Shown here: positions 15,401-17,180 of the stretch, in pieces
Numbering within the stretch: the first letter of the stretch is position 1
Layout: every line of letters starts with the position of its first letter
Assembly (NCBI GenBank): GCA_964016885.1
Contig: OZ024751.1
Span: 9,796,001 to 9,860,000 of the forward strand
DNA from: Eledone cirrhosa
Lineage: Eukaryota
Reading direction: 5' to 3'
Length of the DNA stretch: 64,000 nucleotides
Position numbers and translations under genes: made by a program
The notes under the pieces: model-generated
Told to the model about the DNA's origin: nothing
The model's input: the letters and a program-made list of their open reading frames with translations, nothing else
Database searches by the model: none

Positions 15401-17180
15401 ACATCTTAAATGAACTCCAAGAGAGTTCCTCTAAAATTTCAATTTTGACCAACAAAGTGGACCAAATACATATCTATAAAAAAGGATCCCATGAAGAAGC
15501 GGAAAATACCCAAGAGACGAATATTACTCCAGCATTAATTAAACTAATCGAAACCATTGAAACAGCAATGCTCCAAAAGCTGGAACAACCATTAGAACCC
15601 AATCTACGAGATGTCCACTCAGTGAAAAACACCCTAATCAATATATGGACTCACAAGCTCACAGCCCGCAAATTCGCCCTTGGGAATATCCTGAAAAATA
15701 ATTGCAAAGCAGACATATATGAAAAGTGGCAAAACTCTACCCCAATCATCCTCCCCAAAAAACTCTAAATAAAACCCATCTCGAATGAACCAGAAAACCA
15801 ACAAAAACTTAGGGAAAAGATGACGTTAGAAAAGTTTAAAATAGAAATAGAACTGTTGCGGTTAAAAGCCAACTCCAACGAAGAAAAAATCAAGTCAGTC
15901 AACCAACAGATGGTCCAGAAAAATGAGAGTTCATCGCCAACAATTACGAGATCCGACCACTAGACAGATACCGCTAAGTGCACATCTAGACATATGCGCA
16001 AGTAATAAGACACCCAAATTCAAAGTCTTCCCATTTTATCTTTGCGCTGACAATACAACAGAACAAATACGAATAAATAAGGCAAATATGTTTATACAAA
16101 AATATAGACCAGCATTAAATATAGTTTAATATACATTATGTCAACACCATAAGATGCTAACCATCCAAACAGACACATACATACACACACACATAACACC
16201 TTCTACTTCAGAAAATAAAAACAGAACTAAATACACTTTAACATACGTTAAAACTCTAACACCTTAACATGCTGACCACACACCCCACACACACATAACT
16301 CCCTCCCCCATTTCTACTAATAGAATCATTTTCCTACACACACACACAATACATATATATTCTCTCCATCTTAAGACGCTAACCATACTCCCACACACAC
16401 ACACACACACACACATAACACACACACACACAAAATATATATATTCTCTTTATTTTAACATGCTAACCATACTCCCACACACATATACACACACACACAC
16501 ACAAGCACACAAATAAACATACATATCTCTACTTTCTTTATTTCAATAGAAAGTCTGAATTCTGACACCCCAGCACGCCAACCATATTCACTGAACCAGA
16601 ATCATTCTCCGCATCCCATTTCTCTTGAACATTATCTTTTGTTTGGCACAAAATTCTCTAAAATGCTACAGAATAAATTCCCAAATACGGGTGCGATATT
16701 TAATGTACTTGTTCACGTGACAGTTATAATTTCATTTATAACCAATCAAATTACATTTATAAAAAAAAGCCTTCGTGAGCCACTTTTTTTTAAGTAAAAA
16801 GAAATTCAAACACAAACTGGCGCGAAAGCTGACGTGCTTATTCACGTGACTGCATCAACCAAACTTCAATCATATATGAAAAAACAACCTGAGCCACACC
16901 TTTGTTTGAAGAACTTTGTAACGCGAACTGGCGGGAAATTTATTATACATTATCACCAACCAATCAATTTACTCTTGTAAAAACCTGGCATTTCGAGCCA
17001 CATTTTTCCATATAAAACAAGTAGCATTCAAAGACCAACCAGATGTGAGAAAAAACACAGACCCTCCATGTCAACTCAACTTTTGAAAAGCAGAGGAACT
17101 GCGAAACCGGTAAAGGAACCAAATAAATATATATATTTAAAAAAAAGACTCCAGTTGCATTTTCGATTTCATCTTTTTCC
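12456..17180. mobile_element. Composite PLE: minus-strand RT plus GIY-YIG pseudogene (13664-15400) and inverted plus-strand 3' end/pLTR (15920-17180)
   Basis: FDVVNLYTTIP, GTAMGT, IYAIKCKECNEDYIGQT; 12520-13870 is the reverse complement of 15920-17180 apart from substitutions and microsatellite lengths. Confidence 0.88.
17080..17115 (+). ncRNA. Minimal type I hammerhead ribozyme, U3-A8 core variant
   Basis: CTT-TTGAAAA-GCAG/AGGAA/CTGC-GAAA-CCGG-TA-AAG; copies at 17909-17944, 12590-12625 (mutated) and 45573-45608 (diverged). Confidence 0.7.

What the first reader, a model, noticed from the sequence alone, without database searches (positions are those of the whole stretch)
17080..17115. U3-A8 hammerhead variant 1, with covariation between subfamilies
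Seen: core TTGAAAA in place of CTGANGA, with all other type I features present, at the pLTR end. The relative at 45573-45608 keeps TTGAAAA and swaps stem pairs (GCAG/CTGC to GCAT/ATGC; CTT/AAG to TTT/AAA), although its GAAA reads GCAA. Known: positions 3 and 8 form a Watson-Crick pair, and U3-A8 is a tolerated but uncommon natural variant. Standard CUGANGA searches would miss it.
Basis: partly seen in the sequence, partly recalled or inferred. Interest (0 to 1): 0.7.

Follow-up and report, generated by a model that had tools for sequence, protein, structure and literature searches.

The report
Penelope hammerhead variants, one likely crippled
The flagged letters are a real but already published variant of a self-cutting RNA motif, carried by a jumping gene with about 12,000 copies in this animal genome; a sister jumping gene with about 11,000 copies, some of them very young, has a further change predicted to cripple the cutting, so these elements likely do not need it to multiply.

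Summary
17080-17115 is a minimal type I hammerhead (helix I 3 bp, core UUGAAAA, helix II 4 bp, ACCGGU palindrome, GUA) in the pLTR of a Neptune-type Penelope-like element (family A). U3-A8 is the family norm: 12,433 genome matches; 56 have C3 (all with A8), 52 lack A8 (all with U3); none is C3-G8. The variant is in print, including this core in a Schistosoma PLE (PMC4209133), and this scan met it before on other DNA.

The relative's GCAA is not decay. It is fixed in sister family B: 11,069 of 11,228 matches, and all 31 motifs beside young intact ORFs (0.4% divergence). A13 changes are reported to cost 10-100-fold. B also has a three-A-U helix I and a hairpin predicted to hide its core, yet keeps 26 of 30 motif bases although synonymous sites are saturated. 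An earlier scan note may describe this family.

Best reading: a slow, dimer- or protein-dependent ribozyme whose cutting is not needed for copying. About 1-2% of copies begin near the cut. Cleavage is untested; no RNA run was listed.

The parts
17080..17115 (+). Minimal type I hammerhead motif of family A: helix I 17080-17082 with 17113-17115; core U3-A9 17083-17089 (U3 17083, A8 17088); helix II 17090-17102; G12-A14 17103-17105; palindrome ACCGGT 17106-17111; predicted cut after A17 (17112/17113)
   Evidence: Sequence, descriptor, folding, genome counts. The cut site follows from standard hammerhead numbering and is untested.
15916..17185 (+). Plus-strand arm of a head-to-head PLE insertion: end of the endonuclease ORF, 3' UTR and pLTR, ending in (TA)n at the family's shorter 3' end
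   Evidence: blastn against young full-length copy L077; self-comparison; two fixed 3' ends at L077:1889 and 1958 (loose ends)
15396..15921 (+). Inverted fragment of family A ORF1
   Evidence: 92.6% to L077 ORF1 region
12385..15397 (-). Minus-strand arm: decayed RT plus GIY-YIG ORF2 (RVT_1 weak hit in 14674-15177; GIY-YIG above cut-off in 13667-14497), 3' UTR and pLTR with the longer 3' end
   Evidence: Pfam; 92-95% to L077 over ORF2 pieces; sequence
12590..12625 (-). Decayed hammerhead of the minus arm (G5 changed to C, A13 to G)
   Evidence: Sequence
16930..17045 (+). Promoter-like part of the pLTR: E2F-like site 16930-16938, CCAAT 16960-16964, TATAAA 17011-17016, predicted start near 17042, about 40 nt before U3
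   Evidence: Motif scan; motif names and meaning are recalled. The start is inferred from TATA spacing and from copies that begin there.
17873..18099 (+). Second, short family A insertion that begins at the predicted start and holds an intact motif at 17909-17944
45532..45768 (+). Short insertion of sister family B; motif 45573-45608 with C13 at 45597
   Evidence: 87% to young family B copy L121; C13 is the family norm

Best explanation
The 36 bases are a minimal type I hammerhead motif with a U3-A8 core pair, the normal form in the terminal repeat of a Penelope-like retrotransposon family with about 12,400 matching copies; it likely cuts slowly after GUA, only when two copies pair through the ACCGGU palindrome or the element's protein helps, and that cut is likely not needed to make new copies. 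Shown: motif, family counts, position in HHR-ORF1-ORF2-HHR units of 4.7 kb, strong conservation between families. Inferred: transcription starts about 40 nt upstream of U3; most templates are copied uncut from two fixed points about 80 and 150 nt downstream of the cut site. A cut, when it happens, would remove the cap from the element's mRNA or trim read-through RNA, so it would act as a brake or side step. Sister family B has fixed A13C and is predicted to cut far more slowly, yet it has spread as recently and as widely. The window copy itself is a dead fragment with a weaker helix I (3 bp) than young copies (4 bp).
For: Family norm: 12,433 matches, control 0; C3 in 56, all A8; non-A8 in 52, all U3, 25 of them G8 by hand count. 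All 34 family A motifs in 20 loci picked by ORF read UUGAAAA and GAAA; 32 have CCTT/AAGG. The 18 full ORF2s differ by 0.45% on average. A against B: 26 of 30 bases from U3 to A17 identical, flanks 41-44%, four-fold sites 43 of 133 against 29% expected at saturation. Dimer: the double-hammerhead fold of young A is -21.1 against -22.5 kcal/mol for the best fold; its monomer is -0.4. Dispensability: 11,069 of 11,228 family B matches have C13; 31 of 31 motifs in loci picked by ORF (18 of 20 loci held one) have it; ORF2 divergence 0.44%. A13 mutants are inhibited 10-100-fold (PMC4075628 passage). In vitro, an Anolis PLE hammerhead needs protein to cut and its mutants still insert (PMC11167929 passages). 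S. mansoni min-HHRs cut only as dimers or trimers, weakly (PMC4209133). Only 235 genome matches lack the bases just before the cut.
Against: No cleavage data and no RNA reads. A pairwise scan of another hammerhead found only the G3-C8 swap rescued and all other double mutants in that region low (PMC9901934 passage), so U3-A8 may cut poorly even as a dimer. Family B keeps its motif: 0 of 38 substitutions between its two lineages against 17 of 179 in the flanks (these copies were picked by the motif, so this is partly circular). A fully dispensable motif should be decaying. Copies starting near the cut are somewhat over-represented: 235 against 139 at a control site, true 5' ends 18 of 25 against 3 of 10, Fisher p = 0.053. 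The TATA-to-helix I stretch is also conserved between A and B (69-71%), so part of the constraint may be on the promoter.
Confidence: 0.6

Rival explanations
1. The motif descends from a hammerhead but is now kept for a non-catalytic job: RNA dimerisation through ACCGGU, a binding site for the element's protein, or a DNA promoter element (U3 creates TTTGAA, recalled as the CHR cell-cycle element, downstream of E2F-like, CCAAT and TATA sites). Neither family cuts to a meaningful degree.
For: B keeps helix II, ACCGGU and the core letters but has lost A13 and helix I strength; its double-hammerhead fold is -8.7 against -23.5 kcal/mol, and a 6-bp UCAAAA/UUUUGA hairpin is predicted to hide U3-A6. 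TTTGAA overlaps U3 in all four correctly placed A and B copies scanned. The region upstream of the motif is nearly as conserved as the motif.
Against: Young A has gained a fourth helix I pair (CCTT/AAGG) and keeps every catalytic letter. A third U3-A8 family (TTGATAA, so no TTTGAA) has a full helix III and a long helix I with compensatory changes. TTTGAA is common by chance in AT-rich DNA (1-3 further CHR-like hits per 390 nt in family A).
Confidence: 0.2
2. Cutting matters and both families do it: C13 is tolerated in a U3-A8 core when the RNA is dimeric or bound by the element's protein, so family B is an active natural triple core variant.
For: The motif has stayed unchanged across B lineages; no substitution at 3% or more across the motif in runs X1 and X3, against 16 variable places in the other 226 bases (p about 0.08). 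Reported A13 effects are 10-100-fold, not absolute. PLE hammerheads can be protein-assisted.
Against: B is weak on three counts at once (C13, three A-U pairs in helix I, competing hairpin). No C13 core appears in the Fig. S3 alignment rows read or in the natural variants listed by PMC3088659.
Confidence: 0.13
3. The cut defines the ends of the transposition template (5' end, or a ligated circle), as proposed in PMC4209133.
For: A mild excess of 5' ends near the cut. A circle would also give copies that run through an intact motif.
Against: These are about 1-2% of copies, many are AT-rich fold-back junctions, and microhomology or an RT stall at the structure explains them equally. 8 of 25 family B loci begin at -34 to -48, at the predicted transcription start, as do window copies 17873 and 45532. 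3' ends lie about 80 and 150 nt past the cut.
Confidence: 0.05
4. The GU of the cleavage triplet is a splice donor (CCG/GTAAAG) for an intron ending at GTGTAG about 100 nt downstream, and splicing explains the conservation.
For: A pyrimidine tract and AG follow in family A. An intron overlaps the D. virilis PLE hammerhead.
Against: Family B has no AG at the matching place. Splicing would not conserve the core and helix II.
Confidence: 0.02

Closest known systems
Minimal hammerheads (min-HHR) of metazoan PLEs, U3-A8 variant of Schistosoma mansoni Cercyon elements (PMC4209133; main text parts 1-2 of 4 and part 2 of 3 of supplement file 2 read)
   Same: Type I order, place in the pLTR, G10.1-C11.1, short helix I, palindromic helix III needing a dimer, thousands of solo copies, U3-A8; the row S. 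mansoni(4) has the same UUGAAAA core.
   Different: No extra base between A9 and helix II; helix II only 4-5 bp; a 6-nt palindrome (ACCGGU); far more uniform and abundant. Sister family B has C13, which no row read shows.
Natural core variants of hammerheads (PMC3088659, section 8 and passages read)
   Same: U3-A8 covariation seen in nature and described as active in vitro.
   Different: The variants named in that section are U3-A8, A6C, A6a, U13a and U15.1-A16.1; an A13C substitution is not named (figures not seen).
Poseidon element PAc of Anolis carolinensis (PMC11167929, passages read)
   Same: Minimal hammerhead in the pLTR, two RT start sites giving two 3' ends, AT-rich targets; cutting is protein-assisted and not needed for insertion in vitro.
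   Different: PAc has C3-G8 and a single ORF that overlaps the ribozyme. Here the cut lies about 170 nt upstream of the ORF1 start and there are two ORFs.
Neptune/Nematis-type EN+ PLEs (PMC8557442, PMC3846280; passages read)
   Same: C-terminal GIY-YIG, CX4CX2C linker between RT and endonuclease, (TA)n targets, inverted and partial-tandem insertions, optional tail; ORF1 with a frameshift is listed as an option in the Fig. 1 legend.
   Different: Clade not placed by a tree. The legend does not say which clades carry ORF1.

Membership tests
Type I hammerhead ribozyme (family A motif) | Core U4 G5 A6 N7 A9, G12 A13 A14, A15.1-U16.1, H17 in order | tested here: met
Type I hammerhead ribozyme (family A motif) | Watson-Crick pair between positions 3 and 8 | tested here: met
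   U3-A8 is the norm; no C3-G8 in the family. C3-G8 motifs of other families exist in the genome (107 matches).
Type I hammerhead ribozyme (family A motif) | Helix II with compensatory changes | tested here: met
   Pair 10.4-11.4 is G-C in A, U-A in B, U-A or C-G in the third family; 94 of the first 100 listed of 1,168 matches pair there, by hand count. Few independent events.
Type I hammerhead ribozyme (family A motif) | Helices I and III stable in one copy | tested here: not met
   Monomer +2.4 (window copy) and -0.4 kcal/mol (young copy). Normal for PLE min-HHRs.
Minimal PLE hammerhead (dimer type) | Palindromic helix III allowing a double hammerhead | tested here: met
   ACCGGU; dimer fold within 1.4 kcal/mol of the best fold for young A, 4.9 for the window copy
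Minimal PLE hammerhead (dimer type) | Located in the pLTRs flanking an RT plus GIY-YIG ORF | tested here: met
   HHR-ORF1-ORF2-HHR units of 4.7-4.8 kb in L077, L078, L085 (A) and L123, L134, L135, L137 (B); Pfam
Type I hammerhead ribozyme (family A motif) | Site-specific self-cleavage after N17 | not testable with these tools
   No assay; no run on record as RNA was listed
Type I hammerhead ribozyme (family B motif) | Invariant A13 | tested here: not met
   C13 in 11,069 of 11,228 matches and 31 of 31 motifs beside young ORFs. B is hammerhead-derived; it is not filed as an active member.
Rfam hammerhead families | Match to a covariance model | tested here: not met
   No hammerhead hit at E <= 10 on 16950-17190; none among the 150 of 319 rows listed for the window
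Neptune/Nematis-type PLE | CX2-5CxxC linker before a C-terminal GIY-YIG | tested here: met
   CGRSNCGTC in A, CDRPNCGIC in B; definition
Neptune/Nematis-type PLE | RT phylogeny inside the Neptune group | not tested
   No reference set was fetched

The most novel reading that the evidence does not exclude
Families A and B are a natural matched pair: two equally young, equally abundant autonomous Penelope-like families in one genome, one with an intact U3-A8 hammerhead and one whose master copies fixed A13C long ago while keeping the rest of the fold under selection. Either PLE hammerheads have a conserved non-catalytic role (dimer or protein-binding signal) that outlives catalysis, or a U3-A8-C13 core not found in print is active with protein help. 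Either result would answer what hammerheads do in these elements.
Probability: 0.35. Interest if true: 0.65.

Novelty: new variant of a known kind. Interest (0 to 1): 0.43.

Why it matters
The flagged U3-A8 swap alone is ordinary: a new member of a published variant. The role of hammerheads in Penelope-like elements is still called unclear (PMC8557442), and the main test so far is one in vitro system. An intact, recently active family that has fixed a core change predicted to cost 10-100-fold gives genomic evidence on that question. It also gives a cheap test: compare A, B and the position-13 swaps for cutting. It shows too that CUGANGA/GAAA descriptors miss more than 23,000 motifs in this genome.

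Tried and rejected
Rfam found no hammerhead; the window list was filled with microsatellite-driven miRNA hits. RNA: no RNA holder was listed. Contigs of runs X1, X2, X4 showed no joint matching the candidate intron, but they are not on record as RNA and bases 1810-1850 were skipped, so this is no evidence either way. The intron idea was dropped mainly because family B lacks the acceptor. The within-family variable-column test is circular, because rows were picked by the motif, and is not used as support. The B1/B2 block comparison used a wrong offset for L117 and was redone. Folding downstream of the slippery site gave no shared structure in A and B (pseudoknots not modelled). Chance was rejected. 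Literature searches for an A13C natural core: 'hammerhead'+'A13C' 0 papers; 'hammerhead'+'GCAA'+'Penelope' 1 unrelated paper; five-term search 4 papers, none with it in the passages read for three of them (the fourth seen as a listing only); PMC11014351 no hits; bioRxiv 10.64898/2026.07.22.740005 and PMC13282606 passages nothing on core variants. Nelson & Uhlenbeck 2008, Przybilski & Hammann 2007 and Martick & Scott 2006 were not held, so measured rates for U3-A8 and A13C were not seen. Supplement file 1 of PMC4209133, all figures, and bioRxiv supplements could not be seen and may hold C13 examples.

Full report
1. What is at the coordinates. Bases 17080-17115 read CTT / TTGAAAA / GCAG-AGGAA-CTGC / GAAA / CCGG / TA / AAG. 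In hammerhead numbering U3 is 17083, A8 17088, A17 17112, and the cut would fall between 17112 and 17113. The relative at 45573-45608 is as described, with GCAA. A second intact copy lies at 17909-17944 and a decayed one on the minus strand at 12590-12625. A strict descriptor gives 2 hits in the window against 0.01 in 100 resampled windows. Rfam does not see the motif.

2. Context. The motif sits in the plus arm (15916-17185) of a head-to-head insertion of a Penelope-like element. The minus arm holds a decayed RT and GIY-YIG frame, 92-95% identical to young copies. The genome is 3.0 Gb; earlier scan notes call it octopus-type, which I did not test. Loci picked by the protein show the full unit: motif, ORF1 (409 aa), ORF2 (775 aa), 3' UTR, motif, 4.7 kb in all, ending in (TA)n. 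The 18 full ORF2s differ by 0.45% on average, so the family was active recently. The CX4CX2C linker fits the Neptune/Nematis type; no tree was built. Upstream of the motif are E2F-like, CCAAT and TATA-like sites (names recalled), which put a likely start about 40 nt before U3. Many short copies begin there, including window copies 17873 and 45532.

3. U3-A8 is the family norm. The family A pattern has 12,433 matches, control 0. C3 occurs in 56, all with A8. A base other than A at 8 occurs in 52, all with U3 (that pattern also fixed the base before position 3). A3 and G3 were not counted. All 34 motifs in the 20 ORF-picked loci read UUGAAAA and GAAA; 32 have a 4-bp helix I, one has 3 bp and one is masked. 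The window copy has the weaker 3-bp form.

4. It is published. PMC4209133 reports U3-A8 in S. mansoni Cercyon elements, about 1,300 hits, and its Fig. S3 lists a PLE-linked UUGAAAA core. PMC3088659 reports natural U3-A8 as active. Against easy activity, a pairwise scan of another hammerhead found only G3-C8 rescued. Five earlier notes of this scan reached the same verdict on other DNA.

5. Structure. Helix III is only the palindrome ACCGGU. The monomer scores +2.4 kcal/mol for the window copy and -0.4 for young copies. The double-hammerhead fold is -21.1 against a best fold of -22.5 for young A, and -15.5 against -20.4 for the window copy. These are nearest-neighbour energies without core tertiary contacts. 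They fit the published dimer model and the weak activity of such motifs. A third U3-A8 family (TTGATAA) has a long helix I, a 12-nt palindromic helix III and compensatory changes; it recurs at about 320 nt spacing and gave no match to family A proteins, so it looks like a retrozyme.

6. The relative is a second autonomous family with a fixed A13C. Its pattern has 11,228 matches; only 159 have a base other than C at 13 (first 100 listed, by hand: 49 T, 36 A, 15 G, the spread expected from decay of C). In 20 loci picked by protein, 18 held a motif and all 31 motifs read GCAA; the 21 full 784-aa ORF2s (one counted twice) differ by 0.44%. Contigs of three public runs show no variant at that place at 3% or more. 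A13 mutants are reported 10-100-fold inhibited (a secondary statement; the primary papers were not held). B also has a helix I of three A-U pairs and a 6-bp hairpin predicted to hide U3-A6; its double-hammerhead fold is -8.7 against -23.5. I found no C13 core in the searches listed under Tried and rejected.

7. Selection. A and B share 434 of 774 ORF2 residues; four-fold sites are 43 of 133 identical against 29% at saturation. Yet 26 of 30 bases from U3 to A17 match (binomial 5.5e-7 against 42%), with flanks at 41-44%. The TATA-to-helix I stretch is also high at 69-71%, so promoter constraint may contribute. Between the two B lineages the motif has 0 of 38 substitutions against 17 of 179 in the flanks for L117, a partly circular test. 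So B's motif does not look free to decay.

8. Does the cut shape the copies? 3' ends lie at two fixed points about 80 and 150 nt past the cut, so reverse transcription ran through uncut, or religated, motifs. Matches lacking the bases before the cut number 235, against 139 at a control site 20 nt upstream. True 5' ends were 18 of 25 and 3 of 10 loci examined (p = 0.053). That is 1-2% of copies and a mild excess, which cutting, AT microhomology or an RT stall could each explain. By contrast 8 of 25 family B loci begin at the predicted transcription start. This agrees with the Anolis element, where uncut RNA is the main template and core mutants still insert.

9. Verdict. The flagged motif is a genuine U3-A8 minimal hammerhead of a known kind in a dead copy of a young PLE family. 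Most likely it cuts slowly, needs a dimer or protein, and is not required for copying (0.6). Rivals: a non-catalytic role (0.2), C13 tolerated and both active (0.13), template-defining cut (0.05), splice donor (0.02). The part worth following is the A/B pair, which makes the role of PLE hammerheads directly testable. Interest 0.43.

Noticed in passing
L077:3111-3119 and L121:2391-2399, 7125-7133: Families A and B both have ORF1 overlapping ORF2 in the -1 frame with a conserved T TTT TTA heptamer (NHFLD in ORF1, FFR in ORF2) despite 56% ORF2 identity; ORF2 has no early AUG. This suggests programmed -1 frameshifting. An ORF1 frameshift is listed as an option in the Fig. 1 legend of PMC8557442. 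No shared downstream hairpin was found.
   Followed up: partly
L031-L050 (e.g. L041:1462-1577), L090: A third U3-A8 family (TTGATAA) with a long helix I, palindromic helix III and GUC triplet, repeated at about 320 nt, with a GTAAGT donor-like site about 33 nt after the cut; retrozyme-like.
   Followed up: partly
window 43169(-), 45843(+), 49810(-), 53301(+), 54137(-), 54320(+), 54777(+), 56634(+), 58867(+), 59467(-), 36366(+) and others: Many further CTGANGA...GAAA motifs that look like minimal hammerheads of other repeat families.
   Followed up: no
window 17352-17597: An inverted repeat between the two family A copies, each arm with CTGATGA, a hairpin and GAAACCTTGGGTA; related pieces at 21271-21387, 40270-40434 and 46779-46933.
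   Followed up: no
window 17995-18020 region; L077:1897-1912; L121 matching place: A GTGT-nnn-ACAC hairpin near the longer 3' end is kept in A (loop AGG) and B (loop GTT); the two 3' ends of family A are 69 nt apart.
   Followed up: no
window 16800-17045; L077:1460-1740: The pLTR promoter region carries E2F-like, CCAAT, E-box-like, TTTGAA and TATA motifs, resembling a cell-cycle promoter (motif meaning recalled). E2F-like sites were not found in young family B copies.
   Followed up: partly
window 4141-6087(+), 7644-8822(+), 30890-32668(-), 60558-61121(-): Unrelated non-LTR retrotransposon RT frames, three with a zf-RVT hit in or beside them.
   Followed up: no
window 10796-10982, 11070-11257, 42383-42577, 45027-45207, 54938-55058, 59077-59257: A dispersed repeat of about 185 nt, SINE-like, with several copies in the window and in flanking loci.
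   Followed up: no
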